DNA of 61,200 nt, the filler included, from Kipferlia bialata (lineage: Eukaryota): the NCBI GenBank assembly GCA_003568945.1. It is 4 parts of 4 records of this genome, joined end to end, with 100 filler letters (N's around TTAATTAATTAA, not from the genome) between each part and the next. Parts side by side here need not be neighbours in the genome. Positions count along the whole stretch, not along the records: positions 22,018 to 43,901 come from BDIP01000312.1; 3 more parts are not named here. The stretch is one strand, 5' to 3'. The translations under genes and the position numbers were made by a program. Below, in pieces: positions 10,101 to 44,235 of the stretch (the stretch's first letter is position 1; each line of letters opens with the position of its first letter). Under the pieces are notes generated by a model. It did not search any database. It was not told where the DNA came from and was given only the letters and a program-made list of their open reading frames with translations.

Positions 10101-13100
10101 TGTCTCTTCGCACCATCCCTTTAGAAGGAGACTCTGACCCATAGCCAGTGTCATCAAGAGTGTCTCCACCCCCAAGCATCATGGCAATGGGGGTCATCTG
10201 GTGGTGAGGGAATGTAGCGATATACAAGATGTATTCCATTGTCTTGACTTAAAGAGATGCACCCACCTGACTCTTCTGGGCATGGGTGGGTGGCACCATG
10301 ACAGAGCGGGTGACTATTAGTTAGAAGGGGGATGGGGATAGAACACGATCAACAATTACGAGAGTGGACAACCACTGGCTGATAGTGATCCCACCTGCCG
10401 TCATCCAGGAGACTGGATTCACACACACCATGTCAGGACTAGTCCCACCCAGTAGGGTCAGGTGCATCAGGCTCTGCAGCACTAGGATCTGGCGGAGTTA
10501 GGCTTAGCAGAATATAGCATATACTTCTATATATGGATTGTATATAGTCCTAACGTACCGGTGATATGTCAAACATGGATGCGGCGTGCTTGGTGACTCT
10601 GACCACGTCCTCTGCAGACACGCCCTCTCCTAGGGGCAGAGAGAAGGCCATCCCTCGCAGACAGGCATCACTGCACAGCCTCTCCCCATCCAGCACCACA
10701 CACACTGAGTCGAACAAGGCTGTGTCCTCCAGGGGTAGGTGGGCCTCTATCACCACAGCCACGTTCTGTACTTCCCATGTGCCCATCTGCACACCCAGAC
10801 TGTCGACACTCTCCACACACTGGGTGGAGGCATGGTTGGAGTCTACGCCTAGCTGGAGATGAGAATGACTCAGTGATTAACGCCAGTGTACCTTACATAC
10901 CTTCAGTTGTGTATAGTCTGGCTGCCTCTCAACCCTTGGGAACATCCCCACTCCTGACACCAGTGTCTGGAAACAGGGACTCTTAATGACACTAGCCCCA
11001 CTACCAGTGTTATAGTCCAGTGCCGCAGCTATGCACCTGGAGAATGCGGGTACCACTGTCCCGCCTGCAGTGCGTGTCATATGCTCTAGTACCATATCTG
11101 TGGCACTGTCAGCGGATGGGTCCACCACACAGGACAGCCCCTGGACAAAGGAGGGCAGCAGGGTCTGGCTGGCTGCTATGATGTAGCTCTTCCCACAGTA
11201 CATGGGGGAGTTTAACATGATGTGTAGACCAAAGCAGCATGCAGCGGCTAGGCTGTGTGCGTACACCCTGTGTATGTCCGTGAGTACGGGGGGACACATC
11301 CAGTCAGGTTGATGTTCTGCTTGGGTCACAGTTGGATCGCGTAGGGAGTAGAGCTGACAGTGAGATGCTGATAACCTAACTCGATAACAGGAGAGTACTA
11401 TACATATGTGTGTATATGTATCCTACCTCTAGACATGCCCTTTCCTGGTTGAATCTGACCACGTCGTACTGTCTGGGCTGCAGATCAGCGAAGGCATCTG
11501 CAAACCTATCAGGGTCCAGGTCGTTGAACTCACTGTGCAGGGTCTTAAGGGCGCCCATCGCTCCTGGTATATTAGTATCAATAGTAATGCCACAATATCT
11601 TGATGCATAGAATGATACGCAAGTAGGTAGTACCTGGTGAGCATGTGATCTCCCTCAATGAGTCAAATATGTCTGCACTGAAGTTGTCTCCCACTGACGC
11701 CATGATGTTGAATGCAGAGAACACTGTGCTAAAGGCCACCATCAGCATCGAGACCAGGTGGCCGAGACCGTTCTTAGACCCGAACTGAGTCAGAAAGATA
11801 GTGGTGAGCTTGACTTGCAGAGTGCCTATGTTGGGCAATGCGAATGGACCACTGTCACTATCAGGTAGGGGCATGTCCACACCCCCACCGTCTGTAGGGG
11901 TGTCTACAGTACAGGGTGTGGGTCTTGGTTTAACGGTGAGGATACCCTGCTCTGCTAGCAGCCACAGAATGACAGCATGGAGGAAGGAGCATGCAGTGTC
12001 AGATAGATCAAAGTCCAACCCGTCAATGTACATCTCAATGAAGCGGACAATGACGCCGTAGAAGAACTCGTCCTAGAGTGTCAGAGATGGAATCAGAGAT
12101 AAGAAACAGGGATATAGAAGCTCATCGGACGAAAAGAGTGAATAGTCCGATACTATACCTGTGCAAGGGAGCGTGTGTCTGGTTTTGTCTCCGTGACCCT
12201 CTGAAGAGCCAGTCTACACGATACGGACTGTCTAAACATGCCGTAGTGTGTGATGAGAGTGGGTACTCTAAACATGGAGTGCTTGGGCTGCTGGGGGAAT
12301 ATAAACACATGGCTATCCCTGCTTGATGTCTTGAGCGTACTGAAGAGTCTGGCTGTGACTGTGCCCTCTGGGTCCCACGACATGTCTGAGGGTAAGCGCA
12401 TGATCATATGATAATAGTGACACAGACCTGGTATTTGGTTCATATCCAGGGCATATGGAGACTAGCAGCTTGTTAGCAACAGAAACTATGGGACCTTACC
12501 TACACACGTGAGGGTTGATACTGTCCCTGACGAGGCAGGGTCCTCAAGCTTGCCTGGAGAGTCAGACTTGTGTATAAGTTAGTTGCGCAATAGTGGCTGA
12601 CTCCATTAGTATAACTGTTCTGTATGTTGATATAGTTTATAGTATATACTGATCTACGTAGCTACCTGAGTGTGTAAGGGCAGCTGGGTGTGCCACATGC
12701 CTCAACTGCCTCTCTCCGTCTGCACATGCCCTCTCTACCAACACCCTAGCCGAGACAGGGTTGGATGTGTGAATACACACCATGGGCACACACCCCAGCA
12801 CCTTGGTCAGCCACCCCACCGCATACTCACCCTCCTCTGTGAGGCATGTATCCACTGCCCCTTGCCCACTCTCCTCAGAGGATGTATCATCATCATCATT
12901 GCCGTAGTAGGGTAGGGGGAGGGACTGTACCCCAAAGGCTGCTGAGACAGTGAGGGCTAGACCGGAGAGGGCAGCTCGGAAGGACATGGATAGGAACATG
13001 AGAACTGGGGTGAGGGGCTCCATATCATACCAGAACACATTGGAAAGAGAAACATAATTATAGGTATATGTTTGTATACCTGCCATGGGTACACTCCTGT

Positions 13101-16100: not shown

Positions 16101-19100
16101 TCAGTTCCTTGACAGTCACCTTGGGGTCAGTTCATATGTATATGATGTATATGAACACATTCACAATTAATATCCCTGATAAGAGCGCCAGAAACCCATC
16201 ACAGGTAAGCACATATATATCCTACTTGTACTTACCGTGTCAAGTGATCCCAGCGGCATGCCAAGTGTTCTCTCCAGCTGTTGTAGATGCCTGATCTTGA
16301 GAGTGCCGCCCATCAGCACGGTCAGGATCTCAAGGCTAAGGTTAGAGGAGAACACTTCTGCTATATATATATACCTTGGACACTAAAAGATTGTTAGAGC
16401 AGATTATCACCCACCTAGGCCACAGGCCATTAGAACAGGAGGATAGATGTTCTCCAAAGGTGAAGTTTGGAGCATAGGACGCCTGAAATGCCTTGGACAT
16501 CCTCTCCTTGCAGGCTGAGACCTGCTCAACAAGCTGTGACAGGCAGGGGACATCGATGTCTAGAAGTGGGTATGTAGTAGACAGCATAGTGTATGTATGC
16601 GTGTGGAGATTACATCTGTGCAGACACTATTCTTATAAAGTGGTGATACAGACACTTCACATACCTGTCACCATGTCTGTATCTAGACTGTGCATCATGG
16701 TCTCTGTCCTGTGTACCAAGTCGGTACACTCTGCCAACAGGTGGATGTCCCCGGGGAGGTGGCCCTTATTGCCCAGGAGAGGCACAACTGTCTCGGTGTC
16801 GCCCAGGAGATCTACCCAGCCCTGAGGTGTAAGTACTACTATACTAATACACCAATGCATACTATGTGTGGTGTGTATACACACATACCTGTAGCACAGC
16901 TATACCGTGCTGGGTACGTGTGGTGACGTCTGAGAGCTCAGCACACACACGCCTGAGGGGTGAGAGTAAGTGATATACGCAGACCTTGAATGTAAATGAA
17001 TAGCAGTTGGTGAGAGTAATGTATGGACCTGATTTCGATGGTGCTCTGCTTCTCTGCCCTCTGGTAAGACTCAAAGATCCCATTGGTCTCGGTCTCCTCT
17101 GAGTAACTCTCTCTCTCAAGGCTCTTGCGGAGACCGGGCAGCACAATGAGCCCTGTCTCTCTCTCCCATGCATCTATGACCCCGGCAAGAGTGTTAACCA
17201 CGGCCAAATCATAACCATTTAGCTCATCTGCACCCCCTCTCTCCAGGTACTCCTCCACTCTCTCTAGACCAGGGTATGCATCTAACTGAGGCACCTCAAA
17301 TGGTGTGAAGAGACACGAGCTCTGCTCCTGTTCCTGAGGTGATGCCCAGCCATCTGTGAGGTCAGAGAGAGAGGTGTCTGTGAGCTGTGCCATCTGGTGC
17401 AGGGCATGCATCACTCTAGTGCATAGTGAACTAAGGGTAGAGGACAGGGCAGTGATCTGATGCCTGATGCGCTGCCTCGCTGCCACCTGTCTCTCTCTCA
17501 ATGTACCTAGCCTACTCGGCAGACCCTTAACTAGCACACCCAGTCTGATACTGTCCAGCTGGGACTGGATGGGTATGGGTACACACCTATCCAGCATGGC
17601 CAGAGAGTACTCTTCTACACTGGCAACAGCACTGCGCCACCTAGCCAGGTTACGCATCATGATGCCGGAGAGAGCCTCAGAGACTGATACGTCCTCAGGG
17701 GTATGTAATGGGGCGTCAGTGGCCTGTACCAGCTGGTGGCTCATGGACCATATGCAGGACACAGTGGAGACGAGCAGGGCCTTGTGGAGCTGGTGTGAGA
17801 AACACAATGCAAATACACCTGCGTTATGTATATATAGCTCAATACCATACCTCCACAGTAGTCTTCCTCTTTGCCTCATACACACCCTGCAGTGCAGTGC
17901 GCATAGGTTCCAGGTGGTACACCAGACCTGTTGTGTATGCCACTGGTATGTGCTGGTCCAGGAAGTGCTGGAAGGCATCAAGGCTCACCCACTCTGCATG
18001 GACAGGAGATGTACACAGCAGCCCAGACACTGCATTGAGACACGTTGTGAGTATGGTACCCCCATTGATGGGGGTGTATGAGGCCAGGTGGAAGTTGAGC
18101 CACTTGTGCATGGATGCTCTGGAGGTGAACCCAGTTGCACTGCTAAGGGTGGCAGAGTCCACCTGGATGTCCATGTTGGCCCTGTGGGTATGGATGGCAA
18201 GGATGGCCTGGGAGTGAGCAGAGCAACTACGCGGTATGAGAAGGTACTTACGCGGTCACACCTTGAGGTCAGGGATGGGCTCTGATATGTTGAGCACTGC
18301 CTCGTGTGTCACACTGTCTCTGACAGGCACCTCGCACACTAGGGTGGGCCTCTCATCCCCCTTCTCACCCAGGGTTAGATGGTCCTGGCACTCCCAAGTC
18401 TGGGGGTGAGGACAGTGGCGTAATACTCTAAACACTATGTATATAGACACTGCATGTCACGCACCTTGAACACTGTGACTAGCTCTGCCAGTGCCCTCTT
18501 CAGATCCTCCATGCCCTTGATGGAGGTGGGGGCAAACATGTGCTTCCCTCTCAGCCTCATGTGTCTGAATCTGGGTTAGTGATGTCCAATACACATAGAG
18601 AAGCACATCGACTATTATTTTCCTGGTTACATCTTTACACACATGACACCTACATACAAGTGACCAAGTAGTATTAGAATGTACCATATCACCATGACCG
18701 GCCTGCTCGAGTGTATAATATCCCCTTATTCATATACTATTCATCACCTCATCGAAACTGCAATGATACACGCATGTAAGAGTATATACAGTTGTCATGG
18801 TACCTCATCACCATTACCGGTCTCCTCGGGTACTGGGTCCCTCTCTCCAGCCATGACCCAGGCAGATAGGACCACAGAGACAGTGGGTCACCCCCAGTGG
18901 GTCTGGCCAGTAGTCTCCAGGGCGGTGTGTGGAATGATATGTCTGCCGAGTGGAGTGCCTTGTACTGGGATAGGGTGCTATACACAGAGACAGCGGCCTC
19001 AGCTAGGGTGGTTAGCACCATCATGTTTAGCACTCTCAGCAGTGCCCTGACCCTGGCTATGCGTGCCTTGCACTGTACCACCTCGGGGTCAGATGGACAG

Positions 19101-21917: not shown

Positions 21918-22017
21918 NNNNNNNNNNNNNNNNNNNNNNNNNNNNNNNNNNNNNNNNNNNNTTAATTAATTAANNNNNNNNNNNNNNNNNNNNNNNNNNN
22001 NNNNNNNNNNNNNNNNN
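21918..22017. other. Artificial contig linker
   Basis: 100-nt N block containing TTAATTAATTAA (stops in all six frames). Confidence 0.97.
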
Positions 22018-22136
22018 TCTTGTGCCGAAGCTAATCCCCCCCCCCCCCCCCCCCCCCCCCCATCTCTCTCACACACATACACTATCCACTCCCCTCACCC
22101 ATGCCCCAAGTATGTCATACCCATGTTCAGGCATCG

Positions 22137-22179
<43 letters not shown>

Positions 22180-22338
22180 CGTCTCACCCCAGTTCCCAGG
22201 AGTGGATTCTACCCTCTTTCCATGTCTCTCTCTCCCTCTCTCTCTCCCTCTCTCTCCCCTCACTCCAGTTCTCAGGTGTCGATGCTACCCTCTCTCTCTC
22301 TTTCTCTCTCCCCACTTCTTACTAGCCTCTCACTCCAG

Positions 22339-22498
22339 TTCTCAGGTGTCGGTGCCACTCTTGAGGAACAGCCCGACCTGCTACTTGTGTCCAGGTAGAT
22401 GATATGTTTATATATAGTAGTGAATAGTGGCGTGTATAGTACTCTTATAGTCTCCACCCTCGAGGTACAGACCTGCTACTAGTGTCAAGGTAGATGAG

Positions 22499-22531
<33 letters not shown>

Positions 22532-23147
22532 ACAGTATGTGGTACTCTAGAGTAGTGTGAGGAACAACTTGACCTGCTACTGGTGTCCAGGTACATATTG
22601 TTCTACCTCATATCCTTACTCTATCTATTGTCTCTCTCTCTCTCTACATATACACTCTCACCCCAGGGATGACGGGCCACAGACTGCCCCACAGCCCATG
22701 CCCATGGTATGTTCTCTCTCTCTCTCTCTCTCTCTCTATGCATAGTGTATTAATGTATAGTATATGTATACGTGTATTTAGTATATATATCTTGGATATG
22801 GACTGCCTCACTGCCCATGCCCATGGTAGATTGTCTCTCTCTCTGTATCTTTCTCGTTGTTCTTATGTAGAGTCACGACCCAGATTGCTGAATGAGGTAG
22901 CTGCTCTCTCTCTGTGTGTGTGTATATGTCTCTGCCTGACTCTAGGAAAAGAGGATGTATCTATTTTTCTCTATCTACATATTTTCCTATGCCTAATATA
23001 CCGACGCCTCTGTTTATCACCCTAGGTTGAGAGGCTGATGTCCCTCACTGCTGACTGGAGAGAGTACTACGAACTAGGAGGCACAAGAGAGGACATGGAT
23101 GGAAGGTATATACATGCATATATATGTATATATATAGAGAGAGAGAG

Positions 23148-23190
<43 letters not shown>

Positions 23191-23306
23191 TTATAGAGTT
23201 ATACTACGAACTGGGAGGCACCAGAGAGGACATGGATGGAAGGTATGTATATATATATATATCTATGTATATATATACATATATATATTGGGGAGAGAGA
23301 GACAGG

Positions 23307-23337
<31 letters not shown>

Positions 23338-23866
23338 GGAGAGACTTAGAGTACTATGAACTGGGAGGTACAAGAGAGGATATGGATAGAAGGTATATGC
23401 AGAGATGGATATATACTAGTTCATGTATACAGCTATACAATCAATCAAATTGACACTCACTCTGTAGATACACTAAGACCCTTGCCAGTGTGTTCCCTGT
23501 CCCTGTATGTATACATATATATATATCCCTCTCTCTCTCTCTCCCTCTTACTCACTCTTACTCTCTCTCTCTCCCTCTTACCATAGATATACCAAGACCC
23601 TTGCCAGTGTCTTCCCTGTCCCTGAGCACAGTGGGGTCAAGAGGAGACTACTGCTAGACGAGAAGAGGTATGTATACATTTACATAGATATATATGTATA
23701 TATATGCCCTTAGTATATATGTATAATATATGTGTTCCCTGTCCCTGAGCACAGTGGGGTCAAGAGGAGACTGCTACTAGACGAAAAGAGGTATGGATAC
23801 ATATATATATTATTATTATATATATACCCCTAGTATGTATATAGTATATGTGTAAGGGGCAGTCGG

Positions 23867-23907
<41 letters not shown>

Positions 23908-24097
23908 ACACCCTTATTGCAGGACTGCCAGACTGCGTCAGTCCCATCCCTCTATGGCCAAGAAGTCTCTCTCTCTCTCTCTCTCTCTACACCCATATCA
24001 CAGGACTGCTAGACTGCGTCAGTCCCATCCCTCCAATGCCAAGAAGTCTGTGTACAGGGGACTGGCTCTGCAGCCAGAGATTGTAAGCCAGGTATAT

Positions 24098-24130
<33 letters not shown>

Positions 24131-24627
24131 GTCTTATATATGTATAGTCTTATATAGTCTTATATATGTATAGTCAGAGAGAGACTGTGTATAGGGGACT
24201 GGCCCTACAGCCAGAGATTGTCAGTCAGGTATACACACACACACACATATATATATATATACAGTGTATACATATACACACTGCCAAGAAGTTTGTCTTT
24301 AGAGGACTGGCATTGCAGCCTGTGAGGTATATACAAATATATAGAGAGAGGGGCTGTGTATGAATGTATAGAGAGGCCGATGAATCCCGCACCACCCTCT
24401 CTCTCTGTGTGTACATAAATGTTCATGTGTTCGTATATGTATGTATGTATATGTACATTTATCTCTCTCTCTATATATATATATCTATATATACCTGACC
24501 CTTCAGTTCAAGGCCGATACCTCCCTCCCCACCCTCTCTCTCTCTCTCTCTCTCTATCTATGTATCTTCCGCTCTATATATACATCTATACCTAACCCCA
24601 TAGGTCATGGCCGACATCTCCCGCCCA

Positions 24628-24667
<40 letters not shown>

Positions 24668-25218
24668 CATGTATATCTAACTCCTCTAGGTGATGGCCGA
24701 TACCTCCCGCCCCACCCTGGCCGCAGCAGTCAAGGCGCAGGAGAACCAGGGTCTGCTAGAGGCACCACCGTACGTAGAACGTTAATTGATTCATTGATTG
24801 TTTATGATTGATTATAAAGATGTATATAGTTTGTCAAGGCACAGGAGAACCAGGGTCTGCTTGAGGCACCACCGTACGTACATATATACTTTCTCATATA
24901 TATATACTATTTATACTATATTACTCTCTCCATTGGGTTATCCATGTTGTGCACTCATTTCTAAATGTCCTCTCACCCCTAGACAGATTGACAACAATCT
25001 GCTCAAGACCACATTACTAACTGCTAACCTATATATAANNNNTTGACAACAATCTGCTCAAGACCACATTACTAACTGCTAACCTATATATAATAGGTCT
25101 CTCTCTCTATTGTGTATGGTATTGTGTATACTGGTTTCTATATGCTCCCTAACCCCCTAGGCAGATTGACAACAATCTGCTCAAGACCATTGCACAGGGA
25201 TTGACCAAGAAGCAGTGA
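22339..25218 (+). CDS. Hypothetical protein, C-terminal exons (5' partial)
   Basis: Exons at 22339-22394, 22667-22706, 23026-23105, 23587-23667, 24004-24091, 24690-24769 and 25161-25218 are phase-compatible: FSGVGATLEEQPDLLLVSR..VERLMSLTADWREYYELGG..YRGLALQPEIVSQ..QIDNNLLKTIAQGLTKKQ*. A micro-exon near 22870-22960 is possible. No family recognised. Confidence 0.65.
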
Positions 25219-25224
25219 GGGGGT

Positions 25225-25255
<31 letters not shown>

Positions 25256-25811
25256 GGACTGACCAAGAAGAGACACTAGAGGTAGATGGTGGAGAGAGAG
25301 AGAGCGGAGACGGCCCCAACCCATCTTGCAGTAGTCATGAGTTGAGGGTAGACGGTGTCTCGAGGAGAGATGGACGTGCATGTGTCCTGTGACCATCTTG
25401 CTTCCGTGTACATTGGCACTTCTATGAAGGAGACCAGGCTTGGTACCCCTGTTGGTACCCCTGTTGTTGGCTCTTATGTGTCTCCTGACCTCTGCCGGTC
25501 CCTAACTGTTGTAGATGGATCTACACCAGTCTAGATATCCTCTGCTATTCTCTCCACCCGTCCCCTTTCCTATTCATGTCTTGGTAGAGAGAGTGTGGGC
25601 AGCCTGGCTGATGGGGACAGTGTTTGTGTTGTCCATGGGAGAGACAGAACTGAGAGGAAGGGAGCACTCCGCTCAGGGTAGTTGGTGTAGTATTCATATT
25701 GGTGTGAATTGTGCTTATAAATGGATAGGATGCATGATGCAGTGTTACTGATATGGCGGTAGCTCTTAGCTTGAGTCTCTCTTTCTGATCTACGACTGAT
25801 GGAAGAGAGAG

Positions 25812-25950
25812 AGGTTAATTAACCGTTAATGGTAACACTTTCAACGACTACACCCTTGCTAGCAGTTTTGTCCAAACCCTTTTCCATTTTTGCCCCTTCG
25901 AGTTGTAGACTGACTAGCCTGTCACCTCTCCACCCTGCTGTCCAGGTGAG
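25812..25950 (+). promoter_or_regulatory. Putative promoter and 5' UTR exon of the downstream gene
   Basis: GTTAATTAAC palindrome, AAACCCTTTT at 25874-25883, then a strong donor CAG|GTGAGT at ~25945. Confidence 0.3.
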
Positions 25951-26701
25951 TGTATACCCCTATGGCAGAGTGTCACCACCTATAATACATAGCGCAGTGT
26001 GTGCGCCGTTGAAATATAGCCTCTAGAGTGTGTGGTCGCGACTGCAGCATTTAACCCAATCTACCACCCTATCATCCTATACACTCTTCTGCTAGCCTAC
26101 TACACTCTCTTTATGCTGTGAATGTACTATGTATGTGTATAGTGTGTGTGTAGGAGTGCAGGGGTGGGTGTCTGTGTGTGTGCAGTGCCTGCTCAATCCA
26201 ATCCAACTCAATCCCACTTCAATCTCCAACTCATTCCACTTCATGCTTCTATACTACCCCACTCATGTCTCTGTATACATCAACCATATCCACTAATGTG
26301 TTGCTGGAGTGGGTAAGAGTGCGTCTAGCGTGGTTAGCATTCAGTACTATATGTTAAGTGTATATATGGACTGCCTATATACGCCTATCAACCAGGTCAT
26401 AACTACCGTCTCTGGGGTCACTATTCACAGTACCCCGAAATGCATTGCTTCTATTCACTATAGTTGAGAGTAGTCTTCCTATTATACCCTCTGTACTCCA
26501 GTGGTTCCCTCCCTCTCTCCCCCCCTCTCTCTCTCCCCCTGCCAGCCCCTCTCATTCGTAGGTAGAGCCACCCTTACTAACTACTCATACCCTTTACCCA
26601 CATTACACTAGATGGGATACACACACATATATATATACCTATGGTCTACATATACATGTGCACTTACATATACTGACGCTCCAGTAGAGAGAGAGAGAGA
26701 G

Positions 26702-27387
26702 ATGGGTAGGGGTAGGCCCAAGAATGGGCCGGGGGGGTTAGAGAGAGAGAGAGAGAGAAGGAAGCCGTCCTCAGCTGATGTGCTGCACAAGAACCTGATA
26801 CTTTACAACAATGGTGCACCAGCTACTGATGAGGTACCTCCCAGTGTATAAATGTATATATATATTTAACCATATATACTTACGTGTGTATGTGTCTATA
26901 TATGTATCATATGATACCTATATTGTGAGTATCGTGAGTATAGTGGACCATACAATACACGTATCATGTACTCAATATATATGTATATAATACACATACA
27001 TATATGTGGGGGGCGGTTCTGAATGTCCTCGCCCCTCTACATATTTGTATCTTAGTGTCCAAACGTGTGTGTTTCTTTACTCTATACTGGAATCAACCCG
27101 CCCATCCCAGCTGCATAAGATATGCCTATTTGGCTGTGTTGTATGTTCCTCTTAGTGGATGTGTCGTATCGTATCGCATCGTATCGTAACTTGTCGTATA
27201 TGTCCACTCATCCAAGGCAGAGCTGGCACGTAAGGTGAACATCGCAAGTCGTGAGTGGGGTAAGACCTGGGCTCAAGACACGAATGAGGTATGTATACTA
27301 ACCTGAGTGTATTGGTATATATATATACATATACATGTTTTTGTATTGAGCTGGATGACCCAGAGAGTGGAGGTACAGTGGTATTGA

Positions 27388-27420
<33 letters not shown>

Positions 27421-30400
27421 ACTCCTATCGTCTGTACAGAAGGGTAAACGTGGCACAATTATATATTAGACATACATATATATACGTAAATGTGTATTAT
27501 ATTTCATGTATCATACATAGTGTACATACATAGTAGTCATGGGAGGGAGCACAAGTTCCAGAGAGGCAGCGTATCCTGAATATCATGTATGACTAAGTAT
27601 ACTATTGTTGATTCATGGTATAATACTGAATATGCTGTTGCAGATACATTATGTTTAACTATCAGGAGAGGAAGAGCAAGTTCCAGCCTGGGACGGTCAC
27701 TCCCAAGGACTTTGAGAAGCTGTCCACCATCAAGAGCCTCAGTTTCATGCTCAAGTGGCTCAAGAAAGGAGGTGAGAGTCGTATATATATGTGTGTGAGT
27801 GTATCTATGTATATGTCAGAGTACCACTGAGGGAGGTCTAGTATATATATATATATTTGCATTCTATTGTTCCTTACCATAGATGGCAAGAAGACTGTGG
27901 ATGGCACCAAGGGGTGGATCCACTACATCGACATGTTCTTCGTGCCCCGGAGAGGGCAAATGGGTTGCATGCCTGTATTGACGACCTTTGATGAGGCTTG
28001 CAGGCGTCGTGTGGAAGAGGTATGCACACATATTTACTCTGTTATACTTTGCTATATCTATTTAGGTATTGGTATATAATATTAACAAAGGCTGAATACT
28101 GTTAAAGTGCAAAGAATCTGAGATAGAGCTCTAATGCACAGATAGTTCATAATTCATATATATAGATAGTGCAGCATACTAGTGACAGATCTACCGCATC
28201 ATGGTGTAATCCTTCTGCATCTTTGTATATGAGTATATATATGTGTGTATATACACTGCAGATGCTCTGCACCATGGAGTGGATGTTATATAGATGTGTA
28301 TATACTTAATTCATAACTCTATTGATCATGGTATATATATATGTTTAGTTTGAGTAGTGTTATACACTAATGACAGATCCGCCGCATCAGTGAGTATGTA
28401 TAGATATATATGTCGTATATACAATGTGTACATTGTATATACTGACAACAGATACTCCGTGTCAGGCAGTTGATCAGAGCTGTCAAGGATGACATACTAC
28501 AGGCTCAGCGTAACAAGGGCGAGAGGTCGAAGGGTACGGGAAGCACGTTTAGTATAAGTGTACAATACATTGAGTATATATAGTATATATGAGTGTAGCT
28601 GTCAAGGATGACAGACTGCAGGCCCAGACAAAGGGTACGTGAGTGTTATTATATGCGTATTTAATTATATTATACGATATTAATATAATAGAAGTATTGT
28701 ATATATATATGAAAATATATTTATGGGACATATGTATATATATACACTCTTGAGATTGATAAGGGAGTCCAGAGGGTACTTGAACGACATATAGTATATA
28801 TACACATGAATCTGTGCATATATTTTACATACATATCAGGGCAATGACCCCTAGGGGCAACTCAATGTATATTCATGTATTCTTTACAGTAATGTATACG
28901 TTTGTTTCTTGTGGTGCACTATATACATATCCGGGAGCACTGACCCATAGGAGCCACCCCAATCATCAGCAAGAGAGAGAGAGAGAGACAGACCACTGAG
29001 GGAGAGAGAGAGCGGCCAAGTGGGGCTGAAGGGGACAGAGAGCCCCCCATGGTATGCGACTGAGTATTATTGTTACAGTTACACATGTATCCAGGCTCTA
29101 TATGCATATGCATTATATACAATCAAGTTTGGTTGGGTGAGACCTATATAGTGTCGATTACATATCAGCTGTGCTACTGATTTCGTAGTTAGCATATCCA
29201 CCGTACAGTCTAGTATATGTGAGAATGACTGTAATTGGCATCTTCGCTATGAAGTGACTAGCATATCAATATATAGTACATACTGTATGCACGCTCACCT
29301 TATTCTCAATGTTTACCGCCGTCACTCTCCATCCATCTCTATGTATCTACGATGCTAACCGTCCAGGCGTCTACCCACCGAGTATATATATGCATGTATG
29401 TTAATACAGTACTACATACATACTATGATATAGTAGTACTGCATCATGCATTGACGATACTAACGCTCCAGCCATCCAGACGCCCAGACGCCAGTGTCCC
29501 AGAGAGGGACGGAGAGAGGGAGAGAGAGGGGGAGAGAGAGAGGGAGGGAGAGAGGGACCAGGGTCCAAGGGCTACTAGGAGAGAGGGTATGATATCTGTA
29601 TATAGGTGTCTACTATACTGAAGGATGGGAAGACCATACTTGTTGGTAATGTATATATTTGCTACATATATTCATATATGTCTACTATAATACTCACTCT
29701 CAGCTGTACCCAAGAAGAAGGGCAAGAAGAAGACTCACTATACTTTCACTATACCATATATCCACGATATATATGATCACCTCTCCCTGACTCCTCAGGG
29801 AAGAAGGGCAAGAAGAAGAAAGAGGAGGGGAAGCCACCCCACCCTCTCACCACACGTGGCCAGAAGCTCAGTCCCAGACCCCCCAAGGTATAGTCGTAAC
29901 TCTTTCTTTCCTAGATATACTTTAGTGTTTCTTGTTGTACCAACCAGAATTCAGAGTCTCTGATATGTCATATATCTATGTACCCCAGCGTGAACATGGT
30001 TGTATTCCTTTCATATACTCAATCGACTTTGTACACATCACTTGTCATCAAGGATTCTACTCTCATTTTCAGACTGGCACCGTAGCCGCTGAGTACACAG
30101 AGTTGGTGTCTCCTGCTAGTGAGCTACCCAAGGGCGCCATCAGCCACCACTCTCCCATACAGGTACCTGAGGTATATATGGGTGTATACTGGTTGTATAT
30201 ATATATATACCACTCTGAAGTACACTATTTCCACACCACATCTACCCATGGCCCCCATCAGCCACCACTCTCCCACACTGGCATGTATCTTCTATATACA
30301 TATATATATATACACATTACATAGTGCAACTGCACACACAGTATAGTGTACAGTATACCACAATATCGTATACGTATGTATATGCTTGCACCTTACTCTG

Positions 30401-33400
30401 AGGCCAAGGACAGTGATGTTACTGACTCAGCGTAGTACCATTTATACCTTGTATGTGAGTATATACATTAATATGAGTATACACGTCACCCTCAGGTCAA
30501 GGAGGGTCACGTGGCCGACACGATCCTCCAGGCCACCTCCCATGCTCACCCCGCTGTCTCTGGTCTAGGCACCCAACCCGAGCCTGCTCCCTCTGCTCAG
30601 AGAGACTCCCCTCCTACACCATCTCATGATGCAGTAGAAGAGGCAGAGACCATCCCTGCTGTGTCTCTAGAGACCCTTGCTAAGACAGGCTATCGGCGTC
30701 CCATGGTGTTTCCAGAGGGGCTAGTAACAGGAGCACAGACCACCACCCACACTGAGGCTCCCCCTCTCCCACTCTCTGCACCTGCTGAGAGTGCATTGGG
30801 AATCCCTGCCAGCGCCCCAATCCCATCTCCCCCAGTGCATACTGCACGTCCTAGTGCTCAGGTCAGTTGTTCTATGTACTCCTATATAGACACTATGAAC
30901 ACGTATACTGCCAGTATGTGATATACGAGACCACGACTGGGTCACCATATATCCTCTTTACAATGTATATGTAATAGTTCATAGGTACAATGGTATGTAT
31001 TGTATATCGTGCATGTATCATTAGATGTTCCCTGTTGTCTCTACAGTGTGGTAGAGTATATATACTATTCACTGCACTGTACTCAGAGCTCATCTATTTT
31101 ATCCCTCACACCCAGACACAGCAGCCTCATTAAACCTCCGGTTGCATATAACATATACACTGTACTATTATCCATACATCGTCTTTGGCACTCACCCCCA
31201 GGCACAGCTGCCTCTATACTTAGCATATATGGTGTATATTTGTGATTGTGATAACTCAGTAGACTCTACAGCTACACACGTCTTCACCAGTACTCACCCC
31301 AGGCACAGCTGCCTACCCCCTCCCCAGTCCAGGATGTACTGTCAGTGCCCTCAGAGAGGGAGAGAGGGGGGGAGAGTGTCGCAGCGTCAGTCCCCGCAAG
31401 TGACAAGGAGAGAGAGAGGGAGAGAGAGAGGGAGCCTCAGGTGTCAGAGAGTGAGTATGAGGTAGAGGTTCAGACAGGGTCAGTGGAGGTAGAGAGAGCA
31501 GCAGAGAGAGAGTGCGAGACTGGTGATAGCAACAACAGATCCCTTGAGACGGGGAGGGAGACAGAGGTAGAGAGCGTGAGTGAGACTGATACCTACGGCC
31601 CTCCTCAGATGGAGATGGAGAGAGAGAGAGAGGTGGACAGAGAGAGAGAGGAGGAGGTGGAGACTGACACCACAGCACCAGTGGAAAGTATGTTAGAGCA
31701 TATAGTACTCACCCATTAGTATACTCCACTATTGCCACGACGACGTATGATGCATTGGTATACTACAGTACACGTCTACCTTCGTCTATTCATATATATT
31801 CACTCTCCCCTCCAGCTTCCCCATATTCTTTCTATACTCATTCATGTACTCCATTTCTCCATCTTCGATATTGCTCTTCACTCTAACCCCAGAGGTGTTC
31901 TACGACTTCAACTTCCTGGTGTATGGCGACCCAGTGGAGGGAATCGACGTGGATGGTCTCAATGTCGACAGGGAGGGAGAGAGGACTTCCATGTCTCCCC
32001 AGGTGCAGTTACCAGGTATGCACCTTTCCAGCCTAAATACGGGATAGTTTATACTATGTATACAATGATAGGTGTATTATATATATATATATCATACATG
32101 ATAGTATATGTATCAACGACAGTGACATATTGCATCATGCAATTTGCATGTACTCTCGCCATGTACCGTATCTACCCAACACCCTCCCCATCAGCACCCT
32201 CCATCAGTCCCATCCGTACACGGTACGGAGGTCACCGTACACCTTACGGTGGCCAGGGTACCCAGGCCCAGTGTACACCTGGTGCAGATGGGCCTCTCTC
32301 TGTTGTGAGGGGGAGAGAGAGACAGACACCACACCTTGGTTCTGCGGCTGTGACAGAGAGCGGGACCTACTCTGGTGCGTGTTACATGGTATTATTGTCA
32401 TATATATATATGTGCATTTACATATATACATGTATTTATACATAATTGTGTGTTGACAGAGGGCGGGAGCTACTCTGGTGCGTTTGTGACTCCATACTGC
32501 ATATATAGTGCTATACTTAGTTAGTATGTGATTATACTTATATGGAGGTGCAGGCGACATCCCATTCAGTGTGAGCAGGAACCTGGTGTATACTACACTC
32601 TATATACTACACATATACCTATTCTACTATACTAATTACTATAGAATGTACGTCGTCTTATCCTAACACTTAGGTGCAATGGACATTCCGTACAGTGTGA
32701 GCAGGAACCTGGTGGGTCGCAGTCCAGATGACCCTGTGGTGAGTGACCCAGTATACTGAAGATACAGTACTACTATAACACATATAGTGTATTATACTAT
32801 ATAGTATGCAGTCCAGGTGATCCTGTAGTGAGTGCTGCAGTATGTAGAAGTTACTGCTGCTATCTACCTCTATGCAATACTCTATATGAATGTATACAGT
32901 GTATAGTGTATATATACTATCACTGCTGACTCTCAGAGACTGATGGAGTCCCGCACCCTCAGACTGCCCCAGTATACAGTGTAGTATATACAGTGTAGTA
33001 TATGTATATAATTACAAATATATATATAATTACTGACTGTCAGAGACTGATGGAGTCCCGCACCCTCGCTGTTGTAGTGTATATACTATACTATATATAT
33101 ATATATACAATATAGTATATATATATATATACTATACACAGAGTTACATCTTACATGCAGAGACTGATGGAGTCCCGCACACTTAGGTTGCTCAAGACCC
33201 GTGCCAGTGTGTCCCATGCCATAGACAGCGGGAGGAGACAGGGGCATGGTACATTCAGGGTGAGTAATATATATAGCAGCATATATAGTAGGATATAGAC
33301 AGTGGTGTCCCATGCCATAGACAGCAGGAGGGGACATGGACAGGGCACATTCAGGGTGAGTATATATAGTGTTAAGTGTATATATATGTATTATAGTGAG

Positions 33401-36400
33401 TGCACATGCCATAGACAGCAGGAGGGGACAGGGGCATGGTACATTCAGGGTGAGTATATATATATAGCAATATATATAGTAGGATATAGACAGTGGTGTC
33501 CCATGCCATAGACAGCAGGAGGGGAGAGGGGCATGGTACATTCCGGGTGAGGATATTATATATATATAGATAGATAGATTTAGATGTTTGTATGTATTCT
33601 ATATATATGGTCCATGCCATAGACAGCAGGAGGGGACATGGACAGGGCACATTCAGGGTATGGTATCACATACATATGTAGTGTATATACTGGTGTCTTG
33701 CGTACATAGTATGTAATATACATCTATACTACCTACACTAGAGTAGGGCACAGGGACAGGGCACGGTATACTTATACATATGATATAATCTAGCGCTATT
33801 GCCTCGTGTCACACGAGTCGTGTGGGTACTTATGGACAGTGACTAGTTCATGCTTACAAGCAGTTAGACTCATATTTTACTCATAGAGTAAACTAGCACT
33901 TGCCCTTACCCTCAGCAGTTGGCCCCTGTCCCTGGTGCAGGCACCATGGGCCAGATGTACACTCCGGCACCAGGAGGTATGTTAGTATATATATAAAATC
34001 AATCAATGTATATATGAATATGTACTCATATATATATATATATAGGTGGCACCATGGGCCAGATGTACACACCGGCACCTGGAGGTATTGTCAAATACAT
34101 ATATACGCGTATATCTATATACGGGCATATAGTTATATTATTATATATTCACAGCATGGGGCATATGTACCCTACGGCACCAGGAGGTATAAATGTACAC
34201 ACTTCTATACATCTATATCTGTCAATATATATATGTGTATATACTCATTCATATCTGTGTTGAGATACTAATCGTAATCATATCGCCTATCCTACCAGCA
34301 CACAGTGCTTCCCTGTCTATACATATGTTCTCTATGTCTACACCACTGTCTGGTTATCTTCTAGTTATATTGTATATATAATGTCTCACAACTCAGCCTA
34401 TCCTGCTGGCCAAAGGTGGTCTCCTATTGCCACCCAGGGAGATGGAGGTACATACAGTACGCATAATGTATATGGAACATGTACTATTCATATATATTCA
34501 CTACATAATAGTATCTGGAGATATATAGTAGGTATACACAACTACGCTATTGTGATTCCCACCCAGGATGATGCAGGTATGTACATATATGGTCACTACA
34601 TTCATATAAATGAATTCATCAGTCGGTCTAACCATCACGTATATACGGAGATGAATGGCAGGGACATATATATATATACATTTGAGTATTCTCAAACATG
34701 TACATATTAGTGTGAATCTAACCAACAGGCCTAGCTGCAGAGTCAGATATATCTATATATATATGCATATTACTATATACATATGTGTGTATCTCACCAC
34801 CAGACCTAGCTGCAGAGTCAGAGACAGAGGAGAATGTCCGTTCTCCCATCCCCGAGTTCGGCACTGACCTACCCGCCAGTCCCTACATCCAGGCAGTAGG
34901 CTACACCCCTCGCCCTCCCACACCGGGCTTCCTGGCACTCTCGCCAGCTGTCTCTCTACCACCACCCCAAGAGACAGTCCAACCCCCACCTGCATCTCCA
35001 ACTCCTGAAGAGCCCTCCGAGCCACGCTCTCCGACTCTCTCTCCCCCTCCTATAGAGACCTTCCAGCCGCTGGAGAGCCTAGTGGCCGAGACACAGACAG
35101 AGAGAGAGGGAGAGATACAGGCAGAGACTGATGCAGAGGTGGAGACTGACAGAGAGATGGAGAGAGAGACAGAGGCGGTGGAGGCTGGAGGAGAGGGAGA
35201 GGGGGAGAGGCTCGGACACCTTGGTGCCCTAGATGGGACTCCGTTCAGCCAGCCTCTCAGTCAGCCCCTCAGTCAGCCTCTCATTGTGCCTCTCAGCGAG
35301 CCCCTCGGTGTGACTGGGGAGCCCGGCCCTTGTGAGTACACAGGCCAGGTACGAATGTATATCATTCTGTTTCAGTATGCACTAGGCTTCAATATTATAT
35401 ACACTAAGCTTATTATACACCACGTCTATATGTTGGATTCTCTATATATGTACTATTTGCCCCATGTGAGTACACAGGCCAGGTATTAATATATCATTCC
35501 CAGTTGTATACAATATATGTTGTATGACTAAATGCATATATGAATGCCAGACAGATTGAATATCGCACCCGTATATAGATACCAATATGATTTAGTGTAT
35601 ATACGATTGTAATCAGAGTAGTACCTGTTGACCCCACAGGGTGCAGAGCCCAGTGATGGAGACAGTGAGGGTGACACCCCATATATATATGCATATATTT
35701 CTATATACTAGTATGTATATGTATGTCTATATATACATACGTTATAGCTTTTGACTCCAGGGTGCAGAGCCCAGTGACAGCAGTGTAACACACTTGTACA
35801 TATATACACATAATAGTAAGTATATATATACCACCATTGTATCTATTGACCCCACAGGATGCAGAGCCCAGTGACAGTGAGGGTGACAGCAGTGAGTCCT
35901 CTGGCAGTGGGTGTTCATCCAGTGAGGTAATACATGGCCATATGTAGTATAGTATATAGTATGGTATTGTATACTCTTGTGCATCTGAAGCGTTATACTA
36001 ATATGTTACATATAAGTAATATGTATGGATTTGTATATACCGCTAACTCTGAGTCCTCTGGCAGTGGGTGTTCATCCAGTGAGGTATTGCAATTGTGTGC
36101 ACAGTACATATATACATGTGATTATATACAATCTGCAGTGTTGCATATGTATGGATGACTGTGAGTGTCTCTCTGGAAGTGGGCCGTACGTATATACAAT
36201 GTGGTATGCTCTCTGTCAGTAGACATGTGCAACATTCATCTGTGTTCTGCATTAGTAGGTTGTCTAACCCGAGAAGGATACACTGCTGTATTATACTCTT
36301 ACCTTAGTTTACTGCTTCTCCATGTACTGATATGCATAATCTCTTACCCCAGGATCCCCCAGTCTGTAGTTACTCTATCTCCATATATATCTTACCTCAG

Positions 36401-39400
36401 GAGCCCCTCGAGGACCAGGCAGTGACCTTGGTAGTCGTCCCTCTGGAGACTGGAGAGGAGACTGCTCAGGCGTCTCTGGCAGTAGGCGGGGGAGAGGAGA
36501 GAGAGGCCCTCGTGTTGGAGAGAGAGGGGGACCTCGCCACTGTGGATGAGGAGGAGGTGGATGCAGTAGGGAAGGGAGAGGAGGGAGAGGAGAGAGAGGA
36601 GAGAGAGACACCCATGGATGAGGTGGTTGTGGATGCAGAGGGAGAGACCCTCACTGCAGGTGCCCTTGCAGGGGGGGACCAGGCTGATACTGACACGGTG
36701 AGTGCAGCTGTGGTGCCTGAGTCTGTGGGAGAGGAGCCTGCCATACAGGTATGTATATAACACTCAGTATATACAGGTATATTTGTACTCACTTATCTGA
36801 TGACATGTGATTATATATCTAACCACCAGGATGGAGGAGAGACTCCCTTTGAGACCGGCGTTCTTGTAGAGGAGGTGGCTATCTCTGCAGGTGCACCCGT
36901 TGCAGAGGAGGACACCATGCACTCTGACACAGCAGACACTGTGAGTACAGTGGTGGTGCCTGAGTCTGAGGGAGAGGCGCCTGCCATACAGGTATGTAGT
37001 GTGCTATATGTGTATTTATATATATCATATGTCTCGTTATTATGTGTGTGTCCCCTGTATCTGACCATCAGGTGAGAGAGGAGCCTGACGTCGGCAGCGA
37101 CGCTCTCGCAGAGGGGGAGTCTATCCCTCTGGCCACACAGGAGGTATGTGTTGTACATAGGGTACCAGTATACGTATGCATATACATACATTGCAAGCAT
37201 CTAGTATGGTGTGTATCTGCATTATACCTAATTAGCAGGTTGCACAGGAGTCTGTCCTCGAGAGTGAGCCTCTTGTAGTGGAGGAGGCCACAGCAGAGGT
37301 AGTGGGACAGGCAGAGACAGACGTTGACGCCGCTGTGCCACAGGAGCAGGGGGTTGTACACACCGAGAGGGAGGGAGAGGGAGGTGTCGAGTACAGTGAG
37401 GACATGGAAGATGACGCTGAGGGTGTAGCCGTTGATGCTGATGCTGCTGTCGCTGTGGACGCTAGGGAGGAGGTTGTGGCTGAGACTGGTGGGGAGGCAG
37501 AGGCAGAGGTAGTGGTGGTTGAGGAGCCCCCCGTCCAGTCCCACATGGTGAAGGGAGAGGTACGGGTTGTGTATGTGATGTATATATTTGCACACGATCT
37601 TTGGGATGCCACCATGATACTACGACTCCTTGTCACTCTATTCGTTGTCTAGAGTCCCTGACCCCAGACTGCTACCCCAGCCAATATGTGACTCGATGAC
37701 CCTATTCATATTATATATATATATGTATATATACTATATATTGTCTCACCCAAGACTGCTGCTCCCCTGGCCGTGCATGTCCCAGAGTCAGTCTCCCAAG
37801 AAGCTGTGTCACTCAGCCACATGCCAGTTGTGAAGACTGAGGTATGAGCATGCATACTACTCCACGACATATCATATGTACACTGCAGTGCAACTACATA
37901 TCCTACATATCCTACATATCCTACATACCCCCATGTGGTCATCATACTAGGACTGATACTACCACTAGTCTTCCTCTGTACTGTAGACTGTAGACTGACC
38001 CCAATGACTAATAGCCCAGCCATACCACACATTAACTACTGTATAGTACATGCTGTATATACTGTGTCTACAGCTCTCTGACCCTCAGACTGCTCTAGCT
38101 GTCAATGAGAGAGCTGCAGAGGCACCTGTGAGTGTCACCCACACCGTACAGCAGGCAGACACTACTGCCCTGTCTACACTGGCTGATGCAGACACTGCTG
38201 ATATGGGCACTAGTGCAGAGTCTGTAGAGGCCATCCCTGAGATCAGCACCCAGGACACTCACATCACCCCCTCCCTCACCAAGTTCATAGAGGCTGTGGC
38301 CGCCCCTGTCGCCGTCGGACCTCTCCCTCTCCCCGGTCAGACTGACACTCTCTCCAGCCTCTCTGCAGTGTCTGCTGACACACTCACAGATGCTCTACAG
38401 AGATCTACGGAGACAGAGACAGAGCCTGCAGCAGTGCCAGAGAGTCAGGATGTGGCTCTTTCTCTTGAGGCTCTGGAGAGTGACCTTTACAGGCGTCTGG
38501 AAGGAGTGCTTGCCCCTGGCGATGTGGACAGGAGAGTGGCACACATCATGGTACTTGCCAGAGGGGACTGTATCGACACTGACAATCCCCTACCACCTCC
38601 ACCCCCTCTCTCTCCTCTCTCTCTCCCTCTCGACACTGACAATCCCCTTCCCCCTCCACCCCCTCTTGGTATCAGTCTCCAGCCAGTGTCCGACAGAGAT
38701 GGTGGTGAGTATGTAGAGGGAGATGGGGAGGAGGCCGAGGATGTAGAGGAGGGCGATGACGAGCCCTACAACTATTTCGGTACCGACGTCGACATCCACT
38801 GTTCAGACGATGCTGAGGTATCAGTGGGGGAGGGAGAGGGAGAGGGAGACAGAGAGGGAGAGGATGGCAACACTGTACCCATGCCCACCTTCGCCACCAC
38901 CATAGAGGAGATACACGCTGGGGAGGAGGATGCTGTACGTGACGCTAGAACTGGCGAGTACAGGGCTCAGATGGCACGCTGCCACTTCATTCTAGGTACC
39001 ACTGTGCTGATTGCTACTATTATTGGGGACACCACTGGATACATATGTCTACGCATGTATACTGGTGGATATGGATATGGGCAACTGCCTCTGCATCACA
39101 CTATATTTATAGGTGTATTTATGGGTGTGTATGTGTACATGTATATATATCTACCATGCCAGTGTCTGATGTCCTGGCCTGTGTGATATACATATGTATA
39201 TACGTCCTAGTATATATATATGTGTGTGTGTGTATATATACATATTTGTATACATGTATATCTATATATAGAGGAACTAACGAGTCAGCGCCTGATGTCC
39301 TGGCCTCTGGGCACACATAGATATGCAAATCCTAGTATACATACACACACACACACATATATATATACATATACATATACATATGTATGCACTTGACACT

Positions 39401-42135: not shown

Positions 42136-42281
42136 GACCTCTCTGTCAGCGGGATTTGCTAGCCAGGGAACATAGTAGTAGAGGTGCAGTTGAGACACAG
42201 CTTTAATAGATTAATCGATTATTCTTGTCGGCAGCTCTATTGTTCCAATGTCCAAGACTCCGTAGTCCACTTCCACAACAG

Positions 42282-43290: not shown

Positions 43291-43299
43291 GAGATACTA

Positions 43300-43901: not shown

Positions 43902-44001
43902 NNNNNNNNNNNNNNNNNNNNNNNNNNNNNNNNNNNNNNNNNNNNTTAATTAATTAANNNNNNNNNNNNNNNNNNNNNNNNNNNNNNNNNNNNNNNNNNN
44001 N
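43902..44001. other. Artificial contig linker
   Basis: N block with TTAATTAATTAA. Confidence 0.97.
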
Positions 44002-44202
44002 TCCCCCTCGTATCCCTACGCACCCCGCTCCTCATTCTTTCTCTCCCCCCCCCCCCCTCTCTACCTCAACCTAGGCACCACTCTCTAGAATTACATTTCT
44101 CTCTCTCTCTTACCCCTAACCTATAGGCACCACTCCCTTCATGTATATGTGTCCCCCCACTCCCCATTTCTCACCCTAGGCACCACTCTCTTCATTGTAT
44201 CG

Positions 44203-44235
<33 letters not shown>

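What the first reader, a model, noticed from the sequence alone, without database searches (positions are those of the whole stretch)
23026..24769. Consistent echo polarity builds layered introns full of decoy splice sites
Seen: upstream echoes are acceptor plus exon 5' end with no donor, and downstream echoes are exon 3' end plus donor with no clear acceptor. Intron 23106-23586 thus reads real GT, decoy GT (23243), decoy GT (23393), decoy AG (23467), real AG. The open frame needs the outermost pair, although simple introns here are mostly ~50-110 nt. Inference: either strong exon definition in a short-intron genome or stepwise nested (intron-within-intron) splicing.
Basis: partly seen in the sequence, partly recalled or inferred. 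Interest (0 to 1): 0.7.

Follow-up and report, generated by a model that had tools for sequence, protein, structure and literature searches.

The report
Decoy exon-edge copies in protist introns
In a gene of the protist Kipferlia, every intron holds partial copies of the neighbouring exon edges with intact splice signals, yet the one assembled transcript skips them all; this is a repeat type known from lancelets ("mirages"), here likely ignored because splice sites are paired across exons, and likely copied from other working alleles, since in this gene the copies differ mostly at silent positions.

Summary
Observation confirmed. The window is Kipferlia bialata DNA. All five named splice sites are where stated. 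Across seven gene models, 79 echoes show the polarity and none the reverse. Polarity needs no special splicing: it is what a tandem duplication over one exon-intron boundary leaves. Such repeats are known as amphioxus 'mirages', and this scan found them before in several animal genomes. One spliced contig (run X2, RNA by guess) fits the outermost sites at five junctions exactly, including one where the inner acceptor would stay in frame. Decoys score as well as real sites. Nested splicing is unlikely as a general rule: 25 of 34 decoy-bearing introns have decoys of one kind only. Cross-exon pairing is the best reading, notable where echo-free introns have a median of 84 nt, but intermediates are untested. 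New here: echo-versus-exon differences in this gene are mostly silent (0-fold 7/258 sites, 4-fold 21/73; ratio 0.09, neutral floor 0.5). That suggests copying from diverged working alleles. The two largest echo-bearing genes do not show it (0.41, 0.64).

The parts
22339..22394 (+). Exon A, first exon on this contig (gene continues upstream, off the contig)
   Evidence: Open frame; RNA contig position predicted 515 at 22337, observed 515
22269..22291 (+). Upstream echo of exon A with acceptor
   Evidence: acceptor score 11.6 vs real 10.3
22454..22489 (+). Downstream echo 1 of exon A, decoy GT 22490
22558..22590 (+). Downstream echo 2 of exon A, decoy GT 22591
22667..22706 (+). Exon B
   Evidence: Open frame; its 40 nt fit the RNA contig arithmetic
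22801..22825 (+). Downstream echo of exon B, decoy GT 22826
23026..23105 (+). Exon C; real donor GT 23106
   Evidence: X2 record 9 piece 23025-23094, record 349-418
23202..23242 (+). Downstream echo 1 of exon C, decoy GT 23243 (score 11.3 vs real 9.3); 2 differences, both silent
23348..23392 (+). Downstream echo 2 of exon C, decoy GT 23393 (9.3); 5 differences, 4 silent
23468..23505 (+). Upstream echo of exon D, decoy AG 23466-67 (2.6 vs real 6.7); 3 differences, all silent
23587..23667 (+). Exon D
   Evidence: X2 record 9 piece 23586-23665, record 259-338
23731..23790 (+). Downstream echo of exon D, decoy GT 23791 (11.4 vs 11.7); 4 differences, all silent; holds a possible in-frame 36-nt cassette 23755-23790 absent from the RNA contig
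23923..23968 (+). Upstream echo of exon E, decoy AG 23921-22; its use would add 81 nt in frame, not seen in the RNA contig
24004..24091 (+). Exon E
   Evidence: X2 record 9 piece 24002-24085, record 175-258
24182..24228 (+). Downstream echo 1 of exon E, decoy GT 24229; 6 differences, 5 silent
24279..24326 (+). Downstream echo 2 of exon E, shortened at its 3' end; GT at 24327 (scored as not intact by the census)
24375..24398 (+). Weak, decayed upstream echo of exon F (acceptor score -3.2); may be chance
24507..24535 (+). Upstream echo of exon F, decoy AG 24505-06
24604..24626 (+). Upstream echo of exon F, decoy AG 24602-03 (7.5 vs real 3.7)
24690..24769 (+). Exon F
   Evidence: X2 record 9 piece 24688-24769, record 89-170
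24833..24873 (+). Downstream echo of exon F, decoy GT 24874; 2 differences, both silent; on one DNA contig with exon F
   Evidence: X1 record 5
24983..25011 (+). Upstream echo of exon G, decoy AG 24981-82; 0 differences in 28 aligned nt
25161..25218 (+). Exon G, ends in TGA
   Evidence: Open frame; X2 depth in bin 25075-25289 fits, junction not shown directly

Best explanation
The echoes are real head-to-tail DNA copies of one exon edge plus the adjoining intron piece, and the assembled transcript skips them all; they likely arise and get refreshed by recombination, and the spliceosome likely ignores them because it pairs the acceptor and donor that lie closest across an exon. Steps. (1) Shown: exon and echo lie on the same DNA contigs, and units are about one intron long (echo 15-63 nt plus a spacer of median 70-72 nt). 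(2) Follows from geometry: a duplication with one end in an exon and one in the intron leaves acceptor plus 5' piece upstream, or 3' piece plus donor downstream, never the reverse. Copies spanning a whole exon or a whole intron would be spliced in and are presumably removed by selection (inferred). (3) Shown for the main product: outermost sites at five junctions of this gene. (4) Inferred: 'shortest exon wins'. An upstream echo has branch point and AG but no good donor; a downstream echo has a good donor but no branch-pointed AG. The intron is removed in one step. (5) Inferred, about 50%: the echo's exon part was copied from another functional allele, at birth or by later conversion, which is why differences are silent while flanking intron parts are nearly unrelated.
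For:: X1 contigs with exon plus echo, 0 differences. X2 record 9 pieces match the outermost model at 8 of 8 positions; record 11's loose end matches the next full exon at 28452, a further long jump; tandem periods 137, 123, 81 and 97 in this gene; 0 of 79 wrong polarity; 69 of 79 keep GT/AG; decoy vs real median scores 9.9 vs 9.2 (acceptors, p=0.69) and 8.75 vs 9.2 (donors, p=0.38), so decoys are not simply weak; branch-point motif in 33 of 39 decoy and 136 of 150 real acceptors, 0 of 8 partner AGs; in-frame option 23668-23922 not used, so decay of frameshifted products alone cannot explain the choice there; focal gene 36 of 54 unique differences silent (47% expected if the echo is neutral and the exon changes only silently, p=0.003); 0-fold/4-fold 0.09 (p=3e-5 vs 0.5); four other genes pooled 0.16 (p=0.002); exon parts 92% identical, adjoining 30 nt of intron 67-70% vs 60-63% for unrelated. 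Papers: mirages do not disturb splicing (PMC3087553, PMC3902484, passages); cross-exon proximity rule (PMC9225289, passages); most upstream donor used in F7 (PMC1557585, abstract and Discussion).
Against: RNA support is one contig from one run whose RNA status is the tool's guess. Contigs drop rare variants and 1860 letters at repeats were skipped, so minor isoforms and intermediates are invisible. 32 of 143 internal exons exceed 200 nt, so an exon extended to a decoy is not too long; plain exon-size limits do not explain the choice. Surviving echoes are a selected set. Introns with both decoy kinds are slightly more common than shuffled (9 vs 6.4, p=0.052). The silent bias is absent from the two genes with most echoes (0.41, p=0.31; 0.64, p=0.8); all non-focal genes together give p=0.055-0.13. 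Differences private to one echo (28 of 60 silent) beat the neutral 25% but cannot exclude sequential copying. No second strain was found, so allelic diversity is unmeasured, and the silent divergence needed (about 0.2-0.3) is very high. Five of seven gene models are my predictions, with partial copies removed by hand.
Confidence: 0.7

Rival explanations
1. Nested (intron-within-intron) splicing: the innermost decoy pair is removed first, then outward.
For: The innermost pair 23393-23467 is 75 nt, a typical intron here; median innermost GT..AG span 121 nt. 9 introns carry both decoy kinds against 6.4 expected (p=0.052). By eye intron 24092-24689 has two decoy donors and two good decoy acceptors. 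The RNA contig cannot show intermediates.
Against: 25 of 34 decoy-bearing introns have one kind only and 5 are balanced (3.1 expected, p=0.11). There any decoy use spends the only partner and gives a dead end, so decoys must be skipped anyway. Only 7 of 39 decoy acceptors are followed by GT, so no general ratchet.
Confidence: 0.07
2. Ordinary intron definition with local silencing and filtering: decoys are muted by the intron-type (UA, CU, GA repeat) sequence on their exon side or by too little exon sequence, wrong products are degraded, and only harmless duplications survive.
For: Echo-free introns are short (median 84 nt), a size class that follows cross-intron proximity in PMC9225289 (passages). 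Echo exon parts never exceed 63 nt. Echo introns are richer in dinucleotide repeats (median 0.16 vs 0.07, p=1e-7). That truncated exon sequence shifts use to the outer duplicate site is recalled from Reed and Maniatis 1986, not read here.
Against: Real exons as short as 36 nt are used while a 60-nt echo with a full-strength donor is skipped. The in-frame option at 23922 is skipped. 41 of 150 introns tolerate echoes, which argues for a default rule. Not exclusive of the best reading.
Confidence: 0.17
3. Origin only: echoes are same-chromosome duplicates that decay neutrally, and the silent excess in this gene is chance or older silent change in the real exon.
For: Fits the two largest genes (0.41 and 0.64). 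One paralog-polarised site shows the real exon changed silently after copying (echo 54377 shares GTC with the paralog). No exon heterozygosity or near-identical paralog was listed in X1.
Against: This model cannot go below a ratio of 0.5; the focal gene gives 0.09 (nearest echoes) and 0.17 (all 16), four other genes 0.16, all nearest echoes 0.28 (p=0.0005). The focal gene was fixed by the task, not picked after the test.
Confidence: 0.35
4. The echoes are translated in minor isoforms, which would explain their silent-only changes.
For: Silent bias. The NCBI model of the neighbouring gene includes one echo as an exon (50564-50611).
Against: Of 12 focal echoes that could be tested, 1 has an in-frame route with both sites at real-site strength (23755-23790, no branch-point motif), and the RNA contig omits it. 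8 of 9 gaps in echo alignments are frameshifting.
Confidence: 0.04
5. Assembly artefact: two haplotypes stitched in tandem at microsatellites.
For: Silent-biased differences look allelic; the region is fragmented and has a 4-N gap at 25039-42 flanked by a duplicated stretch.
Against: Separately assembled X1 contigs carry exon, spacer and echo in one piece at depth 315-463, against 468-481 for nearby unique DNA, with 0 differences. Not every echo is bridged by a listed piece.
Confidence: 0.02

Closest known systems
Amphioxus 'mirage' repeats (Adh3, globins BflGb6/BflGb9, troponin C, PGBD5; PMC3087553 and PMC3902484, passages read)
   Same: Tandem duplications over an exon-intron boundary, at both 5' and 3' edges; most keep AG/GT; mRNA is spliced normally; units of 60-160 bp.
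   Different: Here a metamonad protist with short introns; 41 of 150 introns affected; 1-4 extra copies, not long arrays; intron parts of units nearly unrelated; silent-biased differences in some genes, which the passages read do not mention.
Human F7 intron 7 VNTR (PMC1557585, abstract and Discussion read)
   Same: Repeated exon end plus donor; only the most upstream donor is used although the others are functional.
   Different: One locus, donors only, identical 37-bp units. Kipferlia also repeats acceptors and uses the last one, which 5'-to-3' scanning alone does not give.
Exon-centric proximity rule (PMC9225289, passages read)
   Same: Sites closest across the exon win.
   Different: Described for introns over about 250 nt; short introns follow cross-intron proximity. 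Here the inner decoy spans are short (median 121 nt) yet skipped, though 26 of 41 echo introns total over 250 nt.
Fungal stwintrons and recursive splicing (listing and abstract starts only)
   Same: Layered GT..GT..AG..AG appearance.
   Different: No internal intron interrupts the outer donor, branch point or acceptor; the outer pair is spliceable as it stands; AG|GT ratchet points are rare (7 of 39).

Membership tests
Mirage repeats | Tandem duplication spanning an exon-intron boundary | tested here: met
   79 echoes, 73 anchored within 5 nt of the exon edge; tandem periods 81-137
Mirage repeats | Both 5' and 3' boundaries duplicated | tested here: met
   43 upstream, 36 downstream
Mirage repeats | Many but not all units keep AG/GT | tested here: met
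   69 of 79
Mirage repeats | Regular splicing of the mRNA is undisturbed | tested here: met
   One contig, five junctions; main product only
Mirage repeats | Minisatellite-like units, 81-100% identical along the whole unit | tested here: inconclusive
   Exon parts median 92%; adjoining intron 67-70%, near the unrelated 60-63%; some young units 86-92%
Mirage repeats | Copy-number instability between haplotypes or cells | not testable with these tools
   One sample only; no match in metagenome contigs
Stwintron | Internal intron interrupts the donor, branch point or acceptor of the external intron | tested here: not met
   Outer GT and AG are intact at all six introns
Nested introns (general) | Matched decoy donors and acceptors in each intron | tested here: not met
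   5 of 34 balanced, 25 one-sided
Nested introns (general) | Inner junction or lariat in nascent RNA | not testable with these tools
   Only assembled contigs were available
Recursive (ratchet) splicing | Internal acceptor followed directly by a regenerated donor | tested here: not met
   7 of 39 decoy acceptors followed by GT; not the one at 23467
Exon definition | Competing sites resolved in favour of the shortest exon | tested here: met
   Outermost use at five junctions; several skipped decoys score as well as or above the real site
Exon definition | Loss of one site causes exon skipping; cross-exon U1-U2/U2AF dependence | not testable with these tools
   Needs mutants or minigenes

The most novel reading that the evidence does not exclude
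Kipferlia's echoes are snapshots of other working alleles, captured by recombination between strongly diverged haplotypes in which exons are the only islands of homology. The introns of one strain would then record hidden sex and about 20-30% silent diversity in a group where sex has not been seen, explain why mirages sit at exon edges, and show that a reduced metamonad spliceosome pairs sites across exons despite 80-nt introns.
Probability: 0.3. Interest if true: 0.78.

Novelty: new variant of a known kind. Interest (0 to 1): 0.5.

Why it matters
Short-intron genomes are assumed to use intron definition, under which the inner decoys should win. Kipferlia keeps 87 of 174 surveyed spliceosomal proteins (PMC6679479, passage) and has 124,912 introns (PMC5874029, passage). 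If this window is typical, its genome holds thousands of natural duplicated-site constructs, so the depth of exon definition in eukaryotes becomes testable from RNA data alone. Echoes also account for most long introns here (39 of 58 over 150 nt) and can mislead annotation. [quoted passage not shown] The repeat type itself is known and common in this scan, which caps the score.

Tried and rejected
No whole genome is held, so counts are for this window only. One search listed no holder on record as RNA; X2 is a guess, supported by its exon-to-exon pieces. RNA contigs were laid on 22065-28500 only, so junction use in the gene at 44002-55411, including its annotated echo exon, stays open. The focal protein was not identified: none of 25 candidates scored, 0 Pfam families on 4 single exons; short queries make both weak. 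No exact match of an exon D pattern in metagenome contigs. Microhomology or microsatellite seeding of breakpoints is not supported: exon side 1.41 vs 1.57 average, p=0.94; intron side 5.04 vs 5.25, p=0.77. The idea that a 5' echo and a 3' echo are the two halves of one broken older exon got weak support (median gap 10.5 vs 22.5 shuffled, p=0.013, 14 exons; shared variants at 2 sites) but fails for long exons (gaps 51-504), so it was not adopted. Decay of decoy sites under selection was not seen. Dropped before counting: 3 of 82 hits (two cross-hits to the neighbour exon's echo, one gap-edge copy), the poor model at 42150-43901, the first predicted exon of two genes, and the end of the gene beyond 41179. 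Cañestro 2002 and Gao and Lynch 2009 are not held and are known here only through citing passages. Searches that found no report of mirages or silent-biased echoes in Kipferlia or protists: ('duplicat' 0 hits in the genome paper); most subscription papers are not searched. The supplements of PMC3087553 (mirage alignments) were not opened and could show a silent bias in amphioxus.

Full report
Source and setting. The window is four contigs joined by N-linkers (21918-22017, 43902-44001, 59652-59751) with a 4-N gap at 25039. An exon at 47251-47449 matched one protein at 100%, named by its source 'hypothetical protein KIPB_002352 [Kipferlia bialata]'; residues 5-1362 map letter for letter onto 37 exons at 44370-55411. 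The focal gene is on another contig of the window with the same intron style, so I take it as K. bialata too. No whole genome is held.

Gene model. Seven exons (22339-22394, 22667-22706, 23026-23105, 23587-23667, 24004-24091, 24690-24769, 25161-25218) give an open frame of 160 codons to TGA. The 5' end lies off the contig and the protein is unidentified. Run X2 (RNA by the tool's guess, contigs only) has a 747-nt record at depth 83 that lies on four exons in separate pieces. Anchoring one position, the outermost-site model predicts the record coordinate at the other places exactly, 8 of 8 counting the anchor exon's start and the loose end at 22337. That covers five junctions: 23105>23587, 23667>24004 and 24091>24690 from adjacent pieces, 22394>22667 and 22706>23026 from their summed length. 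The sixth fits by depth only. No echo is retained. A second record (depth 3.6) joins three exons of the next gene, and its loose end matches the exon at 28452.

Observation. The next intron has one other open pairing (23668-23922, +81 nt), which the contig does not use. X1 DNA contigs hold exon and echo together at depth 315-463 with 0 differences, close to the 468-481 of unique DNA, so the echoes are not stitched haplotypes; X1 may be the assembly's own sample.

Census. I built seven models with 157 exons and 150 introns: the focal gene, the annotated gene less one echo exon, and five predicted with a small gene finder, with partial copies removed by hand; all are open. Local alignment of each exon to its flanking DNA gave 82 hits; 22 of 2052 unrelated pairs reached the threshold. 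After dropping 3, 79 remain. 42 of 43 upstream echoes are anchored at the 5' end, 31 of 36 downstream at the 3' end, none reversed. 41 of 150 introns hold an echo, as do 39 of 58 introns over 150 nt. Density varies: intact decoys in 6 of 6 introns here, 3 of 60 in the long gene on the first contig.

Why the polarity. A head-to-tail duplication with one end in an exon and one in the intron leaves one complete exon and one partial copy. Over an acceptor the partial copy lies upstream and has the 5' piece; over a donor it lies downstream and has the 3' piece. The reverse cannot arise this way. Tandem periods of 137, 123, 81 and 97 nt in this gene fit. This matches amphioxus mirages: tandem duplications of either boundary, mostly with AG/GT kept, and no disturbance of splicing (PMC3087553, PMC3902484; passages). 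Earlier notes of this scan gave the name and report the same in worms, urchins and a skate.

How they are skipped. With weight matrices from 72 introns of two echo-poor genes, decoys equal real sites: acceptors 9.9 vs 9.2, donors 8.75 vs 9.2; 33 of 39 decoy acceptors keep a branch-point motif. What they lack is a partner: 4 of 39 upstream echoes have a fair donor after them, and the 8 fair AGs before downstream echoes have no branch-point motif. 143 of 150 real donors have G at -1, which the GT after the 23468 echo lacks. The used sites are those closest across the exon: the exon-centric rule of PMC9225289, which that paper ties to introns over 250 nt, while short introns favour the inner pair. 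F7 intron 7 shows first-donor use in human, but scanning alone does not explain last-acceptor use. The census scored the GT at 24327 as not intact; by eye that intron could be balanced too. Limits: long exons are common (32 of 143 over 200 nt), survivors are selected, silencing by repeat-rich spacers may contribute, and contigs hide minor forms.

Silent bias. In the focal gene 36 of 54 unique echo-versus-exon differences are silent (codon positions 6/12/36); 31% is expected for a neutral echo, and 47% if the real exon also changes silently at the same rate (p=0.003). Using only the nearest echo per exon side, 7 of 258 0-fold and 21 of 73 4-fold sites differ, ratio 0.09 against a floor of 0.5 (p=3e-5). 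Four other genes with few echoes, pooled, give 0.16 (p=0.002). The two genes with most echoes give 0.41 and 0.64, in line with neutral decay; their proteins have long low-complexity stretches, so allelic amino-acid differences could be higher there (inference). Exon parts are 92% identical while adjoining intron is barely above unrelated, though detection favours similar exon parts. Coding use is unlikely: 1 of 12 testable echoes has a strong in-frame route and the contig omits it. No near-identical paralog showed among the differences listed for X1. The simplest source of silent-only differences is another functional allele, copied at duplication or by later conversion. Metamonads lack Ku-dependent end joining and fornicates have Dmc1 without Rad51A (PMC8516963); that Dmc1 tolerates mismatched partners is recalled, not read. 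This step is about even odds, and no second strain was found.

Verdict. A real, dense case of a known repeat type. The short-intron setting and the silent bias make it a variant worth a genome-wide check. Interest 0.5.

Noticed in passing
window 50564-50611: The NCBI model KIPB_002352 uses one of three upstream echoes as an exon, duplicating about 12 residues; the frame is open without it. Probably an annotation error.
   Followed up: partly
window 25039-25160: The 4-N gap is flanked by a duplicated stretch, and an X1 contig at depth 494 differs from the acceptor region of exon G at five places: likely a further acceptor echo collapsed in the gap.
   Followed up: partly
window 44002-55411 (+) and 55851-59651 (-): Tail-to-tail paralog pair. 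P0001 has an AMPK1_CBM glycogen-binding domain (PF16561, E=2e-24). The + copy has an extra intron at 52150-52246, with short internal repeats, where the - copy has one 208-nt exon: an intron gain or loss.
   Followed up: no
window 39470-39549: Probable GC-AG intron needed to keep my model of the gene at 27217-41179 open.
   Followed up: no
window 33260-33915: Four downstream echoes with donors and no decoy acceptor, period about 97 nt: the clearest one-sided case against nesting.
   Followed up: yes
window 1194-21690 (-): Predicted 61-exon gene of about 4970 codons with median intron 76 nt and few echoes; 4 large exons gave no Pfam hit among 3 tested here (one search tested 4335-4889, 7234-8046, 11635-12072, 17031-17789: 0 families in all four).
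   Followed up: partly
all introns: Donors depend on the exon side (G at -1 in 143 of 150), and a branch-point-like motif lies within 20 nt of the AG in 136 of 150, recalling the fused branch point and acceptor of diplomonads (recalled).
   Followed up: partly
echo spacers, window-wide: Spacers between an echo and the next homologous site are rarely short (upstream minimum 33, downstream 35 of 36 at least 39 nt; medians 72 and 69.5), about one intron long. Selection on spacing or later repeat growth; unexplained.
   Followed up: partly
window 28140-28400 and 22946-22962: Very decayed echo-like pieces seen by eye below the detection threshold; older echoes are probably undercounted.
   Followed up: no
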